From the NCBI GenBank assembly GCA_017460175.1, contig JAFUBO010000005.1, positions 21,082 to 85,081 of the forward strand: a stretch of DNA of 64,000 nt. The letters are read 5' to 3'. Origin of the DNA: Bacilli bacterium. Its GTDB lineage: Bacteria > Bacillota_I > Bacilli_A > RF39 > UBA660. The position numbers and the translations under genes are program-made. How positions within the stretch are numbered: position 1 is the stretch's first letter; every line of letters starts with the position of its first letter. The notes below the pieces were generated by a model. The model ran no database searches. It was not told the DNA's origin and saw only the letters and a program-made list of their open reading frames with translations. This document shows, piece after piece, positions 57,500 to 63,362 of this stretch.

Positions 57500-58216
57500 T
57501 TGGAAAACTTTTCTTTTTTTTCGAATAATAAAGTAGGAGGTGATAATTTGACATTTAAATATCGTTATCGAAAGCAGATATTAATTGGTAGTTTTCTTTT
57601 TTTAATTTTAGGTTGTGGACTAACATTTATTATATATAAATTTAAAGATAACTTTAAAAATAAAAGTAAAGATATAGTCATTAGTAAGAAGTTAGAAAAA
57701 AAAGAAAATAAAATTGATACAAAATATCAAGTTGATATTAAAGGCGAAGTAAATTATCCTGGTATTTATAAATTAGATATTAATTCACGAGTCATTGACG
57801 TTATAAAACTAGCTGGTGATTTAACAGAAAATGCAGATACATCAGTCATTAATTTAAGTAAAAAAATAAATGATGAAATGGTAATAATTATTTATAGTAA
57901 ACAGCAAGTTGAAGATTTTAAAAAAACGAAAGAAGTTGAAAAACAAGTACAAGAATTATGTATACAAGCAGATGATGATTCACTTAAAAACGATGCATGT
58001 ATTGATTGTGATAATAGTATTAGTGGAAAAATTAACATTAATACTGCAGGTATTGAAGAATTAAAAAAATTATCTGGTGTTGGTGATAAAAAAGCTAAAG
58101 ATATAATTAATTATAGAGAAAAGAATGGTTTGTTTGAAAAAATAGAAGATATTATGAAAGTATCTGGAATAGGAGAAAATGCTTTTGCTCAAATTAAGAA
58201 AGATATTACTGTGTGA
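57500..58216 (+). CDS. comEA: competence protein ComEA (membrane-anchored helix-hairpin-helix DNA receptor)
   Basis: TM helix, SLBB-like VNYPGIY, and C-terminal tandem HhH ININTAGIEELKKLSGVGDKKAKDII.YRE..G.F. Start uncertain. Confidence 0.75.
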   Translation: MENFSFFSNNKVGGDNLTFKYRYRKQILIGSFLFLILGCGLTFIIYKFKDNFKNKSKDIVISKKLEKKENKIDTKYQVDIKGEVNYPGIYKLDINSRVIDVIKLAGDLTENADTSVINLSKKINDEMVIIIYSKQQVEDFKKTKEVEKQVQELCIQADDDSLKNDACIDCDNSISGKININTAGIEELKKLSGVGDKKAKDIINYREKNGLFEKIEDIMKVSGIGENAFAQIKKDITV

Positions 58217-60104
58217 TTCTTTATATTATATTTTTCTTGGCTTAGTAGTTATTACTACTATATTTAGATTGTGTATTATTAATAATAATTATAAAATTCC
58301 ATATACTGGTATAGTGACAAAAATAGTTAAAAATTATGATAAAACTACTATTTGTATAGATAATAAAGTAGTAAGTAATATTTATAAAAATATAGATGTT
58401 TCATTAGGTGATAAAATAAAAATATATGGTGAATTTAATGATAAATATGTAACTATTAATAAATATAAAATATTAAGTAAAAATAAAAGTATATATTATT
58501 ATAATAAAAGTATTATTACTAAGTCATTTAATAATAATGCTTATTTATATACATTTATATTAGGAGATAAATCTTATGTTGATAAGAAAGTAATTAGATC
58601 TTATCAAGAAAATGGTATAAGTCATTTATTTGCGATTAGTGGAATGCATATTAGTTTATTAGTTTTAATTATTAATAAATTATTAAAAAAAATTAATGAA
58701 TATAAAAGATTTAAAATTACTAGTATTATTTTATTTATATATTTATTATTAGTAGGATTTTCTCCTTCTATATTAAGAGGTGTATTATTTTATTTTTTAT
58801 TTGGTATTAATGATATATATTATTTTTATATAAAGAAAATAAATTTGTTTATATTAATCATTTCAATAGCTTTATTAATAAATCCTAGATATGTATATGA
58901 TGTAGGATTTTTATATTCTTATAGTATTAGTTTATCTTTACTTGTTTTTTCTAATTACTTAAAAGGTAATTATTTTATTAGTTTATTAAAAGTATCAATT
59001 ATTTCTAATATAGTTAGTATTCCGATTACTCTTTATAATTTTTATCAAATTAATTTATTAAGTATTGTTTATAATTTATTTTTTGTTCCATTAGTAAGTT
59101 TTATTATATTTCCTTTTACTTTAGTATTATTAATTATTAAACCATTAGAACCTATTTATAATTTATTAATTAAAGTATTAGAAAATAGTTCATTATTTCT
59201 TAGTAATATAGATATATTTAAATTTAGTTTTAGAAAACTGAGTATTTTTGTTTATATTTTTTACTTTATTTTAGTTATGTTTTTTTTATTTAAAAATAAA
59301 AAAATATATTTATATATATTTTTATGTTTACTAATAATCCATTTCTTTTTACCTAGTAATAATTATGTAGAATTTATTGATGTAGGACAGGGTGATTCTA
59401 GTTTAATACATTTAGATAATAAAAATATAATGATTGATACTGGTGGTAATAGAAATAGAGAAATATATTTTTATAATATTCAGCCTGTCTTAAGAAAAAA
59501 TGGGATTAATCATATTAATTATTTAATACTTACTCATGGTGATTATGATCATATGGGAGAAACAATTAATTTAGTAGAAAATTTTAAAGTAGAAAAAATA
59601 ATTTTTAATTGTGGTGAATTTAATAATTTAGAAAAAGAATTAATTAAAGTATTAGATAAGAAAAAGATTAAATATTATTCGTGTATTAAAGAATTAAATG
59701 TAGATAAAAATAAATTATATTTTTTACAAACAAAAGATTATGATAATGAGAATGATAATAGTAATGTTATATATACAGAACTTAATGGTTATAAATTTAT
59801 GTTCATGGGAGATGCATCTATAACTACTGAAAAAGAAATTATGAATAAATATAATTTACCAGATATAGATGTACTTAAAGTAGGACATCATGGAAGTAAA
59901 ACAAGTAGTAGTAAAGAGTTTATAAACGAGATTAATCCAAGATATTCTGTTATTAGTGTAGGTAAGAAAAATCGTTATGGACATCCAAACGAAGAAGTGA
60001 TAAACAATTTAGAAGATTCAAAAATATATAGGACAGATATAGATGGTAGTATTATGTTTAAGATTAAAAATAATAAGTTAAAAATAGAGACTTGTAGTCC
60101 ATAG
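58179..60104 (+). CDS. comEC: DNA internalization competence protein ComEC/Rec2 (competence domain plus C-terminal MBL-fold domain)
   Basis: Polytopic core with GISHLFAISGMHISL. The C-terminal metallo-beta-lactamase motifs are ILTHGDYDHMGE and VLKVGHHGS. Overlaps the comEA end. Confidence 0.8.
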   Translation: MLLLKLRKILLCDSLYYIFLGLVVITTIFRLCIINNNYKIPYTGIVTKIVKNYDKTTICIDNKVVSNIYKNIDVSLGDKIKIYGEFNDKYVTINKYKILSKNKSIYYYNKSIITKSFNNNAYLYTFILGDKSYVDKKVIRSYQENGISHLFAISGMHISLLVLIINKLLKKINEYKRFKITSIILFIYLLLVGFSPSILRGVLFYFLFGINDIYYFYIKKINLFILIISIALLINPRYVYDVGFLYSYSISLSLLVFSNYLKGNYFISLLKVSIISNIVSIPITLYNFYQINLLSIVYNLFFVPLVSFIIFPFTLVLLIIKPLEPIYNLLIKVLENSSLFLSNIDIFKFSFRKLSIFVYIFYFILVMFFLFKNKKIYLYIFLCLLIIHFFLPSNNYVEFIDVGQGDSSLIHLDNKNIMIDTGGNRNREIYFYNIQPVLRKNGINHINYLILTHGDYDHMGETINLVENFKVEKIIFNCGEFNNLEKELIKVLDKKKIKYYSCIKELNVDKNKLYFLQTKDYDNENDNSNVIYTELNGYKFMFMGDASITTEKEIMNKYNLPDIDVLKVGHHGSKTSSSKEFINEINPRYSVISVGKKNRYGHPNEEVINNLEDSKIYRTDIDGSIMFKIKNNKLKIETCSP

Positions 60105-60105
60105 G

Positions 60106-60128
60106 AAAAATTGCACCCAGTGGGTGCA
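60106..60128 (+). terminator. palindromic hairpin after comEC (ttgcacccagtgggtgcaa)
   Basis: 8-bp perfect stem. GC-rich, unusual in this AT-rich DNA. No T-run follows, so it may be a processing or stability element rather than a terminator. Confidence 0.4.
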
Positions 60129-60133
60129 AAATT

Positions 60134-61039
60134 ATGAGAGGAGTAGATATGAATTATTATAATGAAATAAAAAATGAATTAATAAACAATGAAATTAATA
60201 GAAAAGTTAAGAATTATTCAATTAACAAAAGTGATTTAAATTCTTACTATAATGTTGGAAAAATATTAAATGAAGCAGGTAAGCATTATGGCGAAGGAAT
60301 AATAAAAGAGTATTCACAAAAACTAAAATATGATTTAAATAAAAATTATAGTGTTAGATTATTATATAGGATGTTGAAATACTATAATTTTGTATCAGAA
60401 GAAAAATTGCCGACAGTGTCGGCAAAATTATCATGGAGTCACTACGACGAAATTTTAAGATTTGATGATATTAATAAAATTGCATTTTATATTAAAATCA
60501 GTGAGCAGCAAAATTTATCAGTTAGGCAGCTAAGAGAAAGAATAAAGTCTAATGTATATGAAAGATTACCAGAATCTACTAAGGATAAATTGATAAAGCA
60601 AGATGAATCTAATGTGGTTGACTTTGTAAAAAATCCAATTGTGATTAAAAATGGTAATAAATATGATATATTTTCAGAGAAGGTATTACAAAAACTAATC
60701 TTAGAAGATATTGAAAATTTTTTAGATGAGTTAGGAAATGGATTCACATTTATTAAAAGTGAATATCCAATTAAATTAGGTAATCGATATAATTATATAG
60801 ATTTACTTCTTTATAATATTAAATACAAATGCTATGTAGTAGTTGAATTAAAAGTAACAGAATTAAAGAAAGAACATACAGGTCAAATCATGACTTATAT
60901 GAATTATATTGATAAGAATATAAAAACTATTGAAGAAAATGATACAGTGGGTATTATTATTTGTAAACAAGATAATGAGTATGTAATTAAATATTGTTCT
61001 GATGAAAGGATAATTGCTAGAAAATATGAATTAGTATAA
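60134..61039 (+). CDS. DUF1016/YhcG-like PDDEXK-family nuclease domain protein
   Basis: N-terminal LSWSHY..IL motif and C-terminal D...VVELK (PD-(D/E)xK-like) motif. Pattern matches the YhcG family. Confidence 0.6.
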   Translation: MRGVDMNYYNEIKNELINNEINRKVKNYSINKSDLNSYYNVGKILNEAGKHYGEGIIKEYSQKLKYDLNKNYSVRLLYRMLKYYNFVSEEKLPTVSAKLSWSHYDEILRFDDINKIAFYIKISEQQNLSVRQLRERIKSNVYERLPESTKDKLIKQDESNVVDFVKNPIVIKNGNKYDIFSEKVLQKLILEDIENFLDELGNGFTFIKSEYPIKLGNRYNYIDLLLYNIKYKCYVVVELKVTELKKEHTGQIMTYMNYIDKNIKTIEENDTVGIIICKQDNEYVIKYCSDERIIARKYELV

Positions 61040-61079
61040 AAGTGTGATACAATTATATTAGTCAATTGGAGGTTATTTT

Positions 61080-61661
61080 ATGGAATATAAAAAAATGAGA
61101 GAGTATACACATGAAGAATTTGTTAATCTTATATTAAATTTAAATGAAGAACAATTATTAGAACTTAGTGCAAGATATGGTGGATACCCAGTATTATTTA
61201 GAATGGCTTTAGATGATAGAATTAGCCATATACCTTTTATACAAACTGGTGCTGCTATTATTATTAGAAATGAAAATGGGCAAATATTATTACAAGAAAG
61301 AACTGACAGAAATAAATGGGGACTTCCTGGTGGATGTCAAGATTTAGGTGAAGATTTAAGAGTGACTGCTGTCAGGGAAGCTTACGAGGAAACAGGAATT
61401 AAACTTGATCCTAATGAAATTGAACTTATAGATACATTATCTGGTGAATCTAGAAAAAATAGTTATCCAAATGGAGATATCGTTTATAATAATACATCAT
61501 TATATTTGGCAGATGTTTCAATAAGTGATGAATCTACTTTAAAAGGAGATTCAGAAACAAAACGTTTAAGATTTTTCAATCCTGATGAAGTACCAGAAAA
61601 TCTTATGGATGCAGATTTAATAAAAGCATATTTAAATTATACAAAGAAGAGACATTTATAA
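61080..61661 (+). CDS. NUDIX hydrolase
   Basis: Nudix box GLPGGCQDLGEDLRVTAVREAYEETGI (GX5EX7REUXEEXGU). Confidence 0.8.
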   Translation: MEYKKMREYTHEEFVNLILNLNEEQLLELSARYGGYPVLFRMALDDRISHIPFIQTGAAIIIRNENGQILLQERTDRNKWGLPGGCQDLGEDLRVTAVREAYEETGIKLDPNEIELIDTLSGESRKNSYPNGDIVYNNTSLYLADVSISDESTLKGDSETKRLRFFNPDEVPENLMDADLIKAYLNYTKKRHL

Positions 61662-61670
61662 TGTCTACTT

Positions 61671-61701
61671 AAGAACTATCAATATTGATAGTTCTTTTTT
61701 T
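61671..61701 (+). terminator. rho-independent terminator after NUDIX gene
   Basis: aagaactatcaatattgatagttctt hairpin followed by T7. Confidence 0.65.
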
Positions 61702-61735
61702 GTGTTTTAAATTCGACTTACTTTTTGACAATCAC

Positions 61736-61792
61736 CACATGGTGATTATGATCATATGGGAGAAGCAATTAATTTAGTAGAAAATTTTAAAG
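61736..61792 (+). pseudogene. 57-nt comEC internal fragment (56/57 identical to 59535..59591, MBL HGDYDHMGE motif region)
   Basis: Direct comparison: catggtgattatgatcatatgggagaaGcaattaatttagtagaaaattttaaagta against the comEC copy, which has A at the capitalised position. Flanks diverge. It is out of frame with the downstream ORF. Confidence 0.7.
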
Positions 61793-61856
61793 TAAAGTGT
61801 ATTTTTAGTGACAAATTAATGGCTTTGTGTTATAATATGTGCCGAGGTGGACTTAT

Positions 61857-62231
61857 ATGGATATATATACTAGACGTAATATTTCACATGATAATATGAT
61901 GCAATTAATTACTGTTTATTTTAGAGAACAAGAACGTGATGTTAAAGCAAGAATTAATTGTAATGAAAATGGATCTCAAATTAAATTAAGAGAAACAGTT
62001 TCATTTGATGGAATTACTAAAACTGCAGAAAGAGAAATGAAAAATGAGCAATTAGAAGAAATAGTTTGTGATATTTTTTCAAGAGCAGGTCAACAAGTAA
62101 TGAGTATAATTAATTATGCAAAAGCAGGCGCAAAAGTAATAGATTGTGGTTTTGAACATGTGGTTAAACCTAATGAAGAAAAACAATTTATAGTTATAAC
62201 TAAAGAAAAAAGTAAAGTAGGTTATAGATAA
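61857..62231 (+). CDS. hypothetical protein
   Basis: 125 aa from the ATG at 61857 with RBS gaggtgg. No motif recognised. Followed by a terminator. Confidence 0.4.
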   Translation: MDIYTRRNISHDNMMQLITVYFREQERDVKARINCNENGSQIKLRETVSFDGITKTAEREMKNEQLEEIVCDIFSRAGQQVMSIINYAKAGAKVIDCGFEHVVKPNEEKQFIVITKEKSKVGYR

Positions 62232-62262
62232 TTTAAAAACAACTTTTTTTGTTGTTTTTTTA
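62231..62262 (+). terminator. rho-independent terminator
   Basis: aaaaacaac-tttttttt-gttgttttt. Confidence 0.55.
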
Positions 62263-62438
62263 ATTTATTATTATGCTATAATTATAATGTTATGTTGTGA
62301 GAGATAATTTAATTAAACTATAATACTTTTTTGAACTTGAAATAGATAAAAGAAGATATTTGTGTTGTGCAAACTATGTAAAAGTATTTACTAATATATA
62401 TTTTTTGGTTATAATTTTCTATAAGGAAGTGATGAATT

Positions 62439-63362
62439 ATGAAAAAAATTACTGATATATATAAAGTTGATGAAAATTCGTTAATTCATGCTTTTCAAGA
62501 TGCTTGTAGTGATAAAGAATTTAAAGATTATGTATATAATTTAAATATAAAAGAAGATATATTAATGAAATATACTTCGTCATTAGAAGAAGCTTATAAT
62601 GAATGTAAAAATTGTAAAAAATGTAAAAATATTGATAATTGTTTAAATAAAATAAGAGGGTATGCATATACCCCAATATTTGAAAATAATATTATAACTT
62701 TTTCTTATGATGCGTGTGATAAATTAAAGAAAGAATTAAAGCAAAATTCTTATAAAGATAATGTTGATTTGTATGAAATGCCTAAAGAAATGGCTAGTGC
62801 ATCATTTAAAGAAGTTTATAAAGATGATAAAAGTAGAATTCCAATTATTAAATATTTTAAAGAGTTTATGGATCATTATAATGATTTAGAAAAACCAAAA
62901 GGGGTTTATTTAACTGGATCATTTGGTAGTGGTAAAACTTATTTAATATCATGTCTTTTTAACGAGATGGCAAAAAAAGGAATCAAAAGTGCTGCTGTAT
63001 ATTATCCAGAATTTTTAGTAAATTTAAAAGGTTCTTTTTCAAGAGCAAAGGATTCTGAAGATAGAAGTTTTGAAGAAAAAAGGGAATATATAAAAAGAAT
63101 TCCTCTATTATTATTAGATGATATAGGAGCAGAAAATACAAGTAATTGGTCTAGAGATGAAGTTTTAGGACCAATACTTCAATATAGAATGGAAAACCAT
63201 TTACCAACATTTTTTACTTCTAATTTAACATTAGATGAATTGGAAAAATCCCTTTCAATAACAAGTAGTGGTGTTGATAAAGTAAAAGCAAGAAGAATAA
63301 TAGAGAGGATAAAACAGTTAACTGTAACATTAGACCTAATTAGTAAAAACAGGAGAAGTTAA
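62439..63362 (+). CDS. dnaI: primosomal helicase loader DnaI (AAA+ DnaC-like with N-terminal zinc-binding domain)
   Basis: N-terminal Cys cluster CKNCKKCKNIDNC. Walker A GSFGSGKTYL, Walker B LLLDDIG, and sensor FTSN. Confidence 0.75.
   Translation: MKKITDIYKVDENSLIHAFQDACSDKEFKDYVYNLNIKEDILMKYTSSLEEAYNECKNCKKCKNIDNCLNKIRGYAYTPIFENNIITFSYDACDKLKKELKQNSYKDNVDLYEMPKEMASASFKEVYKDDKSRIPIIKYFKEFMDHYNDLEKPKGVYLTGSFGSGKTYLISCLFNEMAKKGIKSAAVYYPEFLVNLKGSFSRAKDSEDRSFEEKREYIKRIPLLLLDDIGAENTSNWSRDEVLGPILQYRMENHLPTFFTSNLTLDELEKSLSITSSGVDKVKARRIIERIKQLTVTLDLISKNRRS

What the first reader, a model, noticed from the sequence alone, without database searches (positions are those of the whole stretch)
61736..61792. 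Internal comEC segment duplicated 2.2 kb downstream of the intact gene
A 57-nt stretch encoding the MBL-domain motif HGDYDHMGE(T/A)INLVENFKV occurs at 59535-59591 in intact comEC. It occurs again with 56/57 identity at 61736-61792, in an intergenic region and out of frame with neighbours. Flanks diverge immediately. This suggests a remnant of a second or ancestral comEC copy, or a recombination scar bracketing the intervening DUF1016 and NUDIX genes.
Basis: seen in the sequence. Interest (0 to 1): 0.5.

Follow-up and report, generated by a model that had tools for sequence, protein, structure and literature searches.

The report
Phage attachment scar beside comEC
The repeated 57 bases are the leftover junction (attR type) of a phage serine-integrase recombination at the active-site codons of the DNA-uptake gene comEC. 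They mark the end of a 2.2-kb gene cassette of a kind found stacked behind comEC in half of the related gut bacteria examined.

Summary
The duplication is real. Five independent assemblies carry it identically.

It is not a random fragment. The 27 nt before copy 2 (61711-61737) are identical to the P half-site of an attP. That attP is a 27+2+27 dyad lying next to a large serine recombinase gene in a temperate phage. Free phage (attP), lysogen attL (comEC 5' + P') and lysogen attR (P arm + comEC 3') were all recovered. All four site types meet at the CA of the His codon in HGDYDH. Copy 2 is therefore an attR-type hybrid site, truncated after 57 nt.

comEC upstream is nevertheless intact. In 40 of 80 genomes, 52 such junctions delimit units of about 2 kb: comEC 3' end, usually a YhcG or Bro-N gene, a variable cargo gene, a terminator and a P arm. 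None carries a recombinase. Across relatives the comEC 3' end is about 82% identical, against about 40% for the rest of the gene, and the two histories are uncorrelated. Whole units are shared between species.

How the units move is not shown. This is a new variant of known kinds: target-gene 3' replacement and SCC-like or integron-like arrays.

The parts
58179..60104 (+). Intact comEC (641 aa): Competence domain at residues 127-371 and metallo-beta-lactamase domain at 401-595
   Evidence: ORF list; Pfam
59508..59563 (+). Inferred attB: B half-site 59508-59534, crossover CA 59535-59536 (first two bases of the His codon of HGDYDH), B' half-site 59537-59563
   Evidence: Extent inferred from the 27+2+27 attP. 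Lysogen attL junctions join comEC 5' sequence to P' at exactly this CA.
59535..59591 (+). Repeat copy 1, inside comEC
59535..60104 (+). comEC 3' segment (residues 453-641) that moves horizontally, independently of the 5' part
   Evidence: Median 82% aa identity to relatives versus 37-46% for residues 1-452. Pairwise nt identity is 0.82 versus 0.56, with correlation 0.00. In L020 versus L042 the divergent block starts exactly at the CA.
60149..61039 (+). YhcG/DUF1016 PD-(D/E)XK nuclease gene (ORF list start 60134; the gene call in L089 corresponds to 60149). It is the usual first gene of these units.
   Evidence: Pfam DUF1016_N + YhcG_C. An ORF-level homologue lies downstream of comEC in 51 relatives' loci and tblastn finds one in 59 of the 81 sequences searched, at 32-95% identity.
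61080..61661 (+). NUDIX hydrolase gene in the cargo position of the unit
   Evidence: Pfam. Its only homologue in the 80 loci is L016, at 65% aa, directly after a native-type comEC 3' end.
61671..61696 (+). Terminator hairpin plus T-run. It belongs to a hairpin family (AGAACTATCAA..TTGATAGTTCT) shared by units with different cargo.
   Evidence: registered flanks (L032_1, L070_1, L073_3, L051_1)
61711..61737 (+). P arm: 27-nt P half-site of a serine-integrase phage attP (ATTCGACTTACTTTTTGACAATCACCA)
   Evidence: Single exact copy in the window. Identical to the attP half next to the LSR gene in L082/L084/L098 and to attR in lysogens L099-L104.
61738..61794 (+). Repeat copy 2: crossover CA plus the first 55 nt of a displaced comEC 3' end (B' side), truncated by deletion
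   Evidence: Full-length displaced 3' ends sit in the same position in relatives.
59535..61737 (+). The whole 2,203-nt unit from crossover CA to the end of the P arm
   Evidence: CA-to-CA unit length in 52 junctions has median 2,048 nt and IQR 1,809-2,187.
61725..61752 (+). Promoter-like site created by the junction: TTGACA in the P arm, 16 nt, TATGAT in the comEC part. This is a consensus match only.
   Evidence: 11/12 match, but the count of such sites in the region does not exceed the shuffle expectation.
61857..62231 (+). 124-aa ORF with no family, preceded by its own promoter-like site (61808-61836). It is species-specific filler between the scar and dnaI.
   Evidence: No homologue in the 80 loci. 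Same arrangement in 5 assemblies.

Best explanation
Copy 2 is the chromosomal (B') part of an attR-type hybrid attachment site. A family of temperate phages of uncultured gut and rumen Bacilli encodes a large serine recombinase (LSR). Its attP is a 56-bp dyad centred on a CA dinucleotide. Its attB is the comEC sequence around the His codon of the metallo-beta-lactamase motif HGDYDH. In the window, the P half of that attP (61711-61737) is joined at the CA to the first 55 nt of a comEC 3' end (61738-61794).

This junction closes a 2.2-kb unit that starts at the same CA inside comEC. The unit holds the 3' third of comEC now in use, a YhcG nuclease gene, a NUDIX gene, a terminator and the P arm. 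Units of this design are discrete and horizontally mobile, and they carry no recombinase. When one enters at the CA it supplies a new in-frame comEC 3' end and pushes the previous one downstream. There the old end decays, here to 57 nt.

Shown: the identity of the sites, the four-way att relationship, the unit boundaries and the horizontal transfer. Inferred: that an LSR made the window's junctions, and by which route. My preferred route uses only canonical LSR reactions. A prophage in comEC excises by attL x a distal attR and so picks up a unit. It integrates in a new host and excises by the proximal attR, which leaves the unit behind.
For: 1. P arm plus CATGG (32 nt) is identical to an attP lying about 25 nt from the stop of a 473-aa Resolvase + Recombinase + Zn_ribbon_recom gene. 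That attP is 27+2+27, with perfect 12-nt outer inverted repeats. Five related LSRs (65-100% identity) have attPs of the same design, all centred on CCA-CA-TGG.
2. attL junctions (comEC 5' + CA + P') are present in L083, L094 and L095.
3. attR junctions of the same phage, joined to at least four different comEC 3' sequences, are present in L099-L104. The free attP form is L098.
4. The four-way alignment of attP, attL, attR and attB shares only CATGG.
5. 52 P-arm junctions occur downstream of intact comEC in 40 of 80 genomes, all on the same strand, with median unit length 2,048 nt.
6. ComEC identity jumps at residue 453: 37-46% before and 82% after. Histories of the 3' and 5' parts are uncorrelated, r = 0.00 over 2,346 pairs.
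7. One whole unit is 94.8% identical over 2,054 nt between L014 (second position) and L019 (first position), while their comEC 5' parts are 57% identical.
8. In L008, arm B precedes an intact native-type 3' ORF only 63% identical in nt to the incoming one. That junction cannot come from homologous recombination.
9. L020 and L042 are 98-100% identical except for a block that starts exactly at the CA.
Against: 1. No LSR gene and no P' arm lie in the 64-kb window or within 10 kb of any of the 80 comEC loci.
2. Canonical LSRs do not recombine an attR-type site with attB (PMC3783163 abstract). Simple circle insertion would therefore be non-canonical.
3. No phage genome carrying a unit or a comEC 3' end was found in IMG/VR. 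That pattern has only about 35% sensitivity, and few phages of this family are held there.
4. No phage with arm types B or C was found.
5. NUDIX looks like a vertically inherited neighbour of comEC (L016: 65% aa, similar to host genes). Yet it lies left of the P arm, which simple import does not predict.
6. Copy 2 is closer to the window's own comEC (0.98) than to any other genome's (maximum 0.95). A local duplication or gene conversion therefore contributed or is an alternative origin.
Confidence: 0.75

Rival explanations
1. Ordinary decayed prophage. A phage integrated in comEC and later lost almost all its genes by deletion. DUF1016 and NUDIX are phage leftovers between attL and attR.
For: Copy 2 with its arm is a true attR-type junction. 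Prophage decay is common.
Against: The left end is not attL. comEC reads through the CA into a full in-frame 3' end, and no P' sequence exists in the window. Deletion alone cannot regenerate the gene. No phage DNA is retained left of the 27-nt half-site in any of 20 type-A junctions. DUF1016, NUDIX and the other cargo have no homologues in the phage contigs held.
Confidence: 0.07
2. The units spread and stack mainly by homologous recombination, for example after natural transformation. They use the conserved comEC 3' end and the YhcG gene as homology arms. The phage integrase made only the first P-arm junction long ago.
For: The right border of the swapped block in L020/L042 lies inside the YhcG gene, a homologous crossover. 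In 14 of 49 junctions the displaced start is closest to the genome's own comEC, which suggests gene conversion. Scars that fuse YhcG and comEC 3' pieces exist (L011, L099). The hosts encode ComEA and ComEC.
Against: Left borders are always exactly at the CA, even where the resident 3' end is too divergent to pair (L008, 63% nt). Three arm types, each resembling a half-attP, imply repeated integrase events.
Confidence: 0.15
3. Local tandem duplication in a former lysogen. The host segment to the right of the prophage (P arm, comEC 3', YhcG, NUDIX) was duplicated. The phage then excised through the proximal attR, and most of the second copy was later deleted.
For: It explains the 56/57 identity of the two copies and why copy 2 is closest to the window's own comEC. 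It explains why a host-like NUDIX (L016 synteny) lies inside the unit. It needs only canonical excision.
Against: The duplication endpoint would have to fall at the outer edge of the 27-nt half-site. The terminator, spacer and P-arm module after NUDIX is shared with units of other cargo in other species and is absent after NUDIX in L016.
Confidence: 0.2
4. Copy 2 plus its upstream flank is a conserved regulatory element (promoter/operator or small RNA) that only resembles comEC.
For: TTGACA-16-TATGAT and the dyad AATCACCA-CA-TGGTGATT overlap it. The flank is conserved across species.
Against: The conserved flank is exactly one half of a phage attP. Copies in relatives continue as whole comEC 3' ends or are truncated at varying points. 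There is no Rfam match. Promoter-like sites are not enriched over shuffles.
Confidence: 0.03
5. Assembly artefact: a collapsed repeat or chimera.
For: The contigs of relatives L002, L081 and L102 break at this repeat.
Against: Five independent assemblies from different samples carry copy 2 and both junctions identically.
Confidence: 0.01

Closest known systems
Prophage Phi1207.3 / Phi10394.4 / Tn1207.1 in comEC (celB) of streptococci
   Same: A serine-recombinase element integrates at a specific dinucleotide inside the comEC coding sequence (PMC4260502).
   Different: There the crossover is a GA at another position, the gene is simply split, and no replacement 3' end or stacked small units are described. 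The hosts and recombinases are unrelated to those here.
A118-type comK prophage of Listeria (serine integrase, 'active lysogeny')
   Same: A temperate phage with a serine integrase interrupts a competence gene and restores it on excision (abstract of PMC7397523; integrase type from my own knowledge).
   Different: Different target gene. No integrase-less units remain, and no mobile gene end is involved.
e14 and phage 21 in icd of E. coli, and tRNA-gene islands (my own knowledge)
   Same: The integrating element carries a substitute 3' end of the target gene, so the gene stays intact. The displaced original 3' end remains as a fragment at the far junction. The 3' end of the gene becomes mosaic among strains.
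   Different: Those elements use tyrosine integrases with a shared core and encode their own integrase. Here the far junction is a serine-integrase half-site, the units are about 2 kb with no recombinase, and they stack.
SCC / pseudo-SCC composite islands at rlmH (orfX) in staphylococci (my own knowledge)
   Same: Large serine recombinases are involved. Insertion is into the 3' part of a conserved gene, which is restored. Elements stack in tandem and are bounded by direct repeats, and some lack recombinase genes and depend on one supplied in trans.
   Different: SCC repeats are 15-20 nt at the last codons, and the elements are 3-60 kb. Here 567 nt of coding sequence travel with each unit, and the arm derives from a phage attP.
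Integron cassette arrays (my own knowledge)
   Same: Co-oriented arrays of single-gene units with very diverse small cargo. New units appear to enter at the promoter-proximal end.
   Different: No IntI tyrosine recombinase, no attI and no folded attC sites. Each unit carries a gene fragment and usually a YhcG or Bro-N gene.
Lambda bio/gal specialised transducing phages with hybrid att sites (my own knowledge)
   Same: The P-O-B' hybrid site next to host DNA from the right of the prophage is formally what the units carry.
   Different: Lambda transducing phages arise by imprecise, rare excision. Here the boundaries are precise and recurrent.

Membership tests
attR hybrid site of a large-serine-recombinase prophage | The left half is identical to the P half of an attP that lies beside an LSR gene | tested here: met
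   27/27 nt plus CATGG are identical to L082/L084/L098. The adjacent 473-aa ORF has Resolvase, Recombinase and Zn_ribbon_recom domains.
attR hybrid site of a large-serine-recombinase prophage | attP has dyad symmetry about a central crossover dinucleotide | tested here: met
   27+2+27 with 12-nt perfect outer inverted repeats around CA. The same design occurs in five related phages.
attR hybrid site of a large-serine-recombinase prophage | The right half is the B' side of attB, and a matching attL (B + P') exists in lysogens | tested here: met
   attL in L083, L094 and L095. attR in L099-L104. Four-way alignment.
attR hybrid site of a large-serine-recombinase prophage | A prophage with its integrase lies between attL and this attR | tested here: not met
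   comEC is intact, and there is no P' and no LSR homologue in the window. The site is a relic or part of an integrase-less unit, not the end of a resident prophage.
attR hybrid site of a large-serine-recombinase prophage | The integrase recombines these sites | not testable with these tools
   Needs a recombination assay.
Integrative element carrying a replacement 3' end of its target gene (icd/e14 type) | Direct repeats of target-gene sequence at both ends, with the gene intact across the proximal one | tested here: met
   59535-59591 and 61738-61794; comEC ORF intact.
Integrative element carrying a replacement 3' end of its target gene (icd/e14 type) | The 3' end in use is foreign to the rest of the gene | tested here: met
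   Identity step at residue 453, uncorrelated histories, and L020/L042 block replacement.
Integrative element carrying a replacement 3' end of its target gene (icd/e14 type) | The displaced original 3' end lies at the distal junction | tested here: met
   Full native-type ORFs behind arms in L008, L034 and L014. In the window only 57 nt remain.
Integrative element carrying a replacement 3' end of its target gene (icd/e14 type) | The element encodes its own integrase | tested here: not met
   No recombinase family was reported among the 56 cargo ORFs scanned as a set (top 25 of 33 matched families shown) or among the 20 scanned individually. There is no LSR homologue in the arrays.
Integron | intI gene with an adjacent attI, and attC sites that fold as imperfect hairpins at cassette ends | tested here: not met
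   No tyrosine recombinase was seen in the window ORFs scanned, and the ORF clusters downstream of comEC hold no array-associated integrase. Unit ends are half-attP arms, not attC.
SCC-like island | Ccr-type serine recombinase acting at the 3' end of rlmH | tested here: not met
   The target is comEC at codon 453 of 641. The associated recombinase is a phage LSR, and no ccr genes are present.
Silent-cassette or diversity systems (pilS-like, DGR, polymorphic-toxin orphan tips) | The stored copies are variable, so that swapping changes the protein | tested here: not met
   The stored 3' ends are the most conserved part of the gene (0.80 mean pairwise aa identity). What varies is the neighbouring cargo.

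The most novel reading that the evidence does not exclude
The units are a phage-dependent gene-shuttle system. They are integrase-less 1-3 kb cassettes whose only recombination signal is a hybrid (attR-type) site. Serine-integrase phages pick them up and set them down through alternative choice among several attR sites, or the cassettes act as satellites that recombine with attL. The result is an integron-like array behind comEC in about half of the species of a large uncultured gut clade. The last third of comEC itself becomes a selfish, horizontally spreading gene fragment that repairs the damage done by the phage.
Probability: 0.35. Interest if true: 0.8.

Novelty: new variant of a known kind. 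Interest (0 to 1): 0.6.

Why it matters
It identifies the attachment site, at single-dinucleotide resolution, of a family of serine-integrase phages of uncultured gut and rumen Bacilli. Together, several data sets supply the four att forms (attP, attB, attL, attR). That gives new integrase/att pairs that could be tested as genome-engineering tools.

It shows that part of a core competence gene has an evolutionary history separate from the rest of the gene. This matters for phylogeny and for annotation of comEC in these genomes.

Phages that split competence genes are thought to protect themselves from removal by transformation (abstract of 10.1101/2024.08.13.607808). Units that rebuild comEC at the same site would be a counter-move, or a hitch-hiker in that conflict.

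If the units are mobilised through their hybrid sites, that would be a way of moving genes with serine integrases that the standard attP x attB / attL x attR scheme does not describe.

Tried and rejected
1. Known RNA family: no Rfam match in 60000-62500 at E up to 1.

2. Cultured references: the 2.2-kb unit has only weak MBL or PDDEXK matches in 50,697 phage and 72,556 plasmid records.

3. Phages with arm types B or C: two exact or degenerate scans of IMG/VR found none.

4. Phages carrying a comEC 3' end: a conserved 32-mer had 0 hits in IMG/VR, but it detects only 28 of 80 comEC loci. No cargo, YhcG or ComEC 3'-end (residues 453-641) homologue is present in the phage contigs held.

5. Recombinase inside or near the arrays: none reported by Pfam and none by tblastn with two LSRs.

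6. Defence-system content: PADLOC gave only a few weak hits.

7. L014/L050 as a clean before-and-after pair. I first read L014's displaced copy as L050's resident 3' end, but overall identity is only 81%. I dropped the claim.

8. L079's 34% 'displaced copy' is a different MBL gene, not a comEC 3' end.

9. The phage variant with a 95% identical GmrSD protein (P0003) has a different right end and no P arm. It says nothing about comEC.

10. A literature search for integrase-less units with serine-integrase sites returned only noise.

Full report
OBSERVATION. The window holds two direct copies of a 57-nt stretch. One lies at 59535-59591, inside comEC (ORF 58179-60104). The other lies at 61738-61794. 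The copies match at 56 of 57 positions, both borders are sharp, there is no third copy, and no match appeared in 100 shuffles. Copy 2 sits after the NUDIX gene and its terminator and before a 124-aa ORF. A 101-nt stretch spanning copy 2 and both junctions is identical in five independent assemblies of the same species. It is therefore not an assembly artefact.

CONTEXT. The gene order is ftsW/rodA, a DHH phosphoesterase, comEA, comEC, a YhcG/DUF1016 PD-(D/E)XK nuclease, NUDIX, the 124-aa ORF, and a dnaI-like gene. The repeat starts at codon 453 of ComEC. That is the His of HGDYDH, inside the metallo-beta-lactamase domain (residues 401-595). Relatives found with ComEC are uncultured gut and rumen Bacilli labelled variously as Bacilli, Erysipelotrichaceae, Tenericutes and Clostridium sp. 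CAG.

COPY 2 IS PART OF A CONSERVED ELEMENT.
- A search of the 80 related loci showed that many carry extra copies of the stretch downstream of comEC, always on the same strand.
- The roughly 30 nt upstream of copy 2 are conserved at over 90% in genomes whose ComEC is only about 50% identical.
- Printed in register, the extra copies mostly continue as whole comEC 3' ends.
- Each extra copy is preceded by a terminator and a 27-nt arm of one of three types. The window has type A.
- The homology with comEC always begins at CATGG.

THE ARM IS HALF OF A PHAGE attP.
- The type-A arm plus CATGG occurs exactly in two IMG/VR contigs.
- In L082 it is the left half of ATTCGACTTACTTTTTGACAATCACCA-CA-TGGAGGTATGTGGTTAGTAAGTCGAAT. 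This is a 27+2+27 dyad with perfect 12-nt outer inverted repeats.
- The dyad lies about 25 nt from the stop of a 473-aa large serine recombinase gene (Resolvase, Recombinase and Zn_ribbon_recom domains). A CI-like repressor gene lies on the far side of that integrase gene.
- Five related integrases (65-100% identity) have attPs of the same design, all centred on CCA-CA-TGG.

ALL FOUR ATT FORMS WERE FOUND.
- Lysogen attL junctions (comEC 5' sequence, CA, then the phage P' arm) occur in L083, L094 and L095.
- I used a phage protein 1.4 kb from the arm as a handle. This recovered the free phage (L098, attP) and prophage right ends in which the same arm is joined at the CA to comEC 3' ends of at least four different sequences (L099-L104).
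- In L099 the comEC 3' end, apart from a short YhcG/comEC 3' fusion scar, is followed by holA, the usual neighbour.
- The four-way alignment of attP, attL, the window's copy 2 (attR type) and the window's comEC (attB) shares only CATGG.
- By the symmetry of attP, the crossover is the CA of the His codon.
- The phage P' arm is not comEC-like, so integration truncates ComEC (...LTHGGMWLVSRIT*).

THE PUZZLE: comEC IS INTACT. The window has no P' arm and no integrase, and comEC reads through the CA. The same holds across the clade.
- 40 of 80 genomes carry 52 P-arm junctions behind an intact comEC (type A 20, type B 27, type C 5).
- CA-to-CA spacing has a median of 2,048 nt; the window's is 2,203 nt.
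- A unit consists of the comEC 3' end (567 nt), usually a YhcG gene (present in 51-59 loci) or a Bro-N/DinD-like gene, one variable cargo gene, a terminator and the arm.
- Cargo is very diverse: 61 ORFs fall in about 49 clusters, 81 of 88 ORFs in the arrays are co-oriented with comEC, and they are assorted small enzymes.
- No recombinase family was reported among the cargo ORFs.

THE UNITS AND THE comEC 3' END MOVE HORIZONTALLY.
- Identity to the window's ComEC is 37%, 41% and 46% for residues 1-200, 201-400 and 401-452. It is 82% for residues 453-641.
- Among 69 ComECs the mean pairwise identity is 0.38 before the site and 0.80 after it. Codon identity at identical residues rises from 0.57 to 0.70.
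- Pairwise nt identity of the 3' part (median 0.82) is uncorrelated with that of the preceding 567 nt (median 0.56). The correlation is r = 0.00 over 2,346 pairs. For example, L019/L022 are 97% versus 61%.
- One whole unit is 94.8% identical over 2,054 nt between L014, where it is second in the array, and L019, where it forms the working end of comEC. Their 5' parts are 57% identical.
- L020 and L042 are 98-100% identical except for a block running from exactly the CA to about +1,090 nt. That block ends inside the YhcG gene.
- In L008, a perfect arm B precedes an intact but divergent 3' ORF that is 63% identical in nt to the incoming type. Host genes shared with its relative L049 follow directly. 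That junction cannot have been made by homologous pairing.
- Distal copies are often the most divergent (L008 47%, L035 50%, L014 57%, L034 58%). This fits entry of new units at the comEC-proximal end.

WHAT THE WINDOW SHOWS. Positions 59535-61737 form one such unit. Positions 61711-61737 are its P arm. Positions 61738-61794 are the start of the 3' end that it displaced, or that was duplicated with it, now cut down to 57 nt.

Two details do not fit a simple import.
- NUDIX has its only homologue in L016. There it directly follows a native-type comEC 3' end and is as diverged as host genes.
- Copy 2 is closer to the window's own comEC than to any other genome's (0.98 versus 0.95 at most). This pattern holds for 14 of 49 junctions.

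Local duplication in a former lysogen, or gene conversion between the repeats, may therefore have shaped this particular locus.

MECHANISM. Three things are shown: the sites are serine-integrase products, the units are discrete, and they transfer between species. How they move is inferred.
- Route a: a circle bearing the hybrid site recombines with attB. This conflicts with the known directionality of serine integrases (PMC3783163 abstract).
- Route b: the hybrid site recombines with the attL of a resident prophage in an excision-type reaction.
- Route c: a prophage sits in a host that already has a downstream attR. It excises through the distal site and carries the unit next to its attP. It integrates in a new host and later excises through the proximal attR, leaving the unit behind.

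I prefer route c because it needs only standard reactions. It would also explain the small unit size (packaging slack), the proximal entry, the match between unit arms and phage arms, and the cross-species spread. The same phage is found in at least four comEC backgrounds.

There is no direct evidence for route c. No phage carrying a unit was found, although the test was weak. Homologous recombination clearly acts afterwards, deleting and fusing pieces.

COMPARISON WITH KNOWN SYSTEMS. Serine-recombinase prophages in comEC are known in streptococci (PMC4260502). Elements that bring a substitute 3' end for their target gene are classical (icd with e14 or phage 21; tRNA islands). Tandem, partly recombinase-less elements at a serine-recombinase site are known as SCC composites. 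Co-oriented arrays of small diverse cassettes are known as integrons.

The present case shares one or two features with each of these and fails a defining feature of each (see the membership table). I therefore call it a new variant of a known kind. The single 57-nt repeat is, by itself, an ordinary att scar. The interest lies in the clade-wide cassette arrays and the mobile gene end that it led to.

Noticed in passing
window 60100-60135 and 60396-60431: These are 36-nt direct repeats (78% identical). One lies between comEC and the YhcG gene and the other inside that gene. Each holds a GC-rich hairpin (TTGCACCC-AGT-GGGTGCAA versus TTGCCGAC-AGT-GTCGGCAA) with compensatory stem changes. Both score as terminator-like on the minus strand.
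   Followed up: no
L034 13007-13597 and other type-B junctions: Arm B supplies an in-frame ATG (MHKRMSP-HGDYDH...). Displaced 3' ends behind it are therefore intact stand-alone ORFs of about 196 aa that cover the C-terminal half of the MBL domain. They might be expressed.
   Followed up: partly
L024 11400-19300; L037 and L080 arrays: L024 has six tandem copies of the last 130-250 nt of comEC, each followed by a different cargo gene. A shared 'mini 3' end' (core + 36 nt + last 50 codons) occurs in L024, L037 and L080, so a deletion variant is itself propagated.
   Followed up: partly
L059 11492-18383: A two-unit block of about 3.4 kb is duplicated in tandem. The same arm B, cargo and partial comEC 3' ends appear twice.
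   Followed up: no
L095 11440-11700: In this lysogen only about 57 codons of comEC remain upstream of attL, and unrelated convergent genes follow. The split gene seems to have decayed.
   Followed up: partly
L099 10255-10390: Directly after the attR-linked comEC 3' end there is a scar: 12 codons of a YhcG N-terminus fused to residues about 37-62 of a comEC 3' end. This suggests a collapsed earlier array in a current lysogen.
   Followed up: no
window 60105-62438 versus L004, L005, L007, L016, L052, L059: The stretch between comEC and the dnaI-like gene differs in gene content in every close relative. It is a hypervariable spot even where no arms are left.
   Followed up: partly
window 61857-62231: A 124-aa ORF with no Pfam family and no homologue in the 80 related loci. 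It has a strong extended -10 promoter-like site (61808-61836). It is present unchanged in five assemblies.
   Followed up: partly
L081 1384-3748; L098 8890-11182: The right end of the comEC-targeting phage carries a GmrSD-like DUF262+HNH nuclease and an EcoRI-type methylase. This is defence-like cargo within about 1.4-3.7 kb of the attachment site.
   Followed up: no
L002 end, L081 start, L102 end: Contigs of relatives and of the phage break exactly in or at the repeat. This shows that short-read assemblies of this clade are systematically fragmented at comEC.
   Followed up: partly
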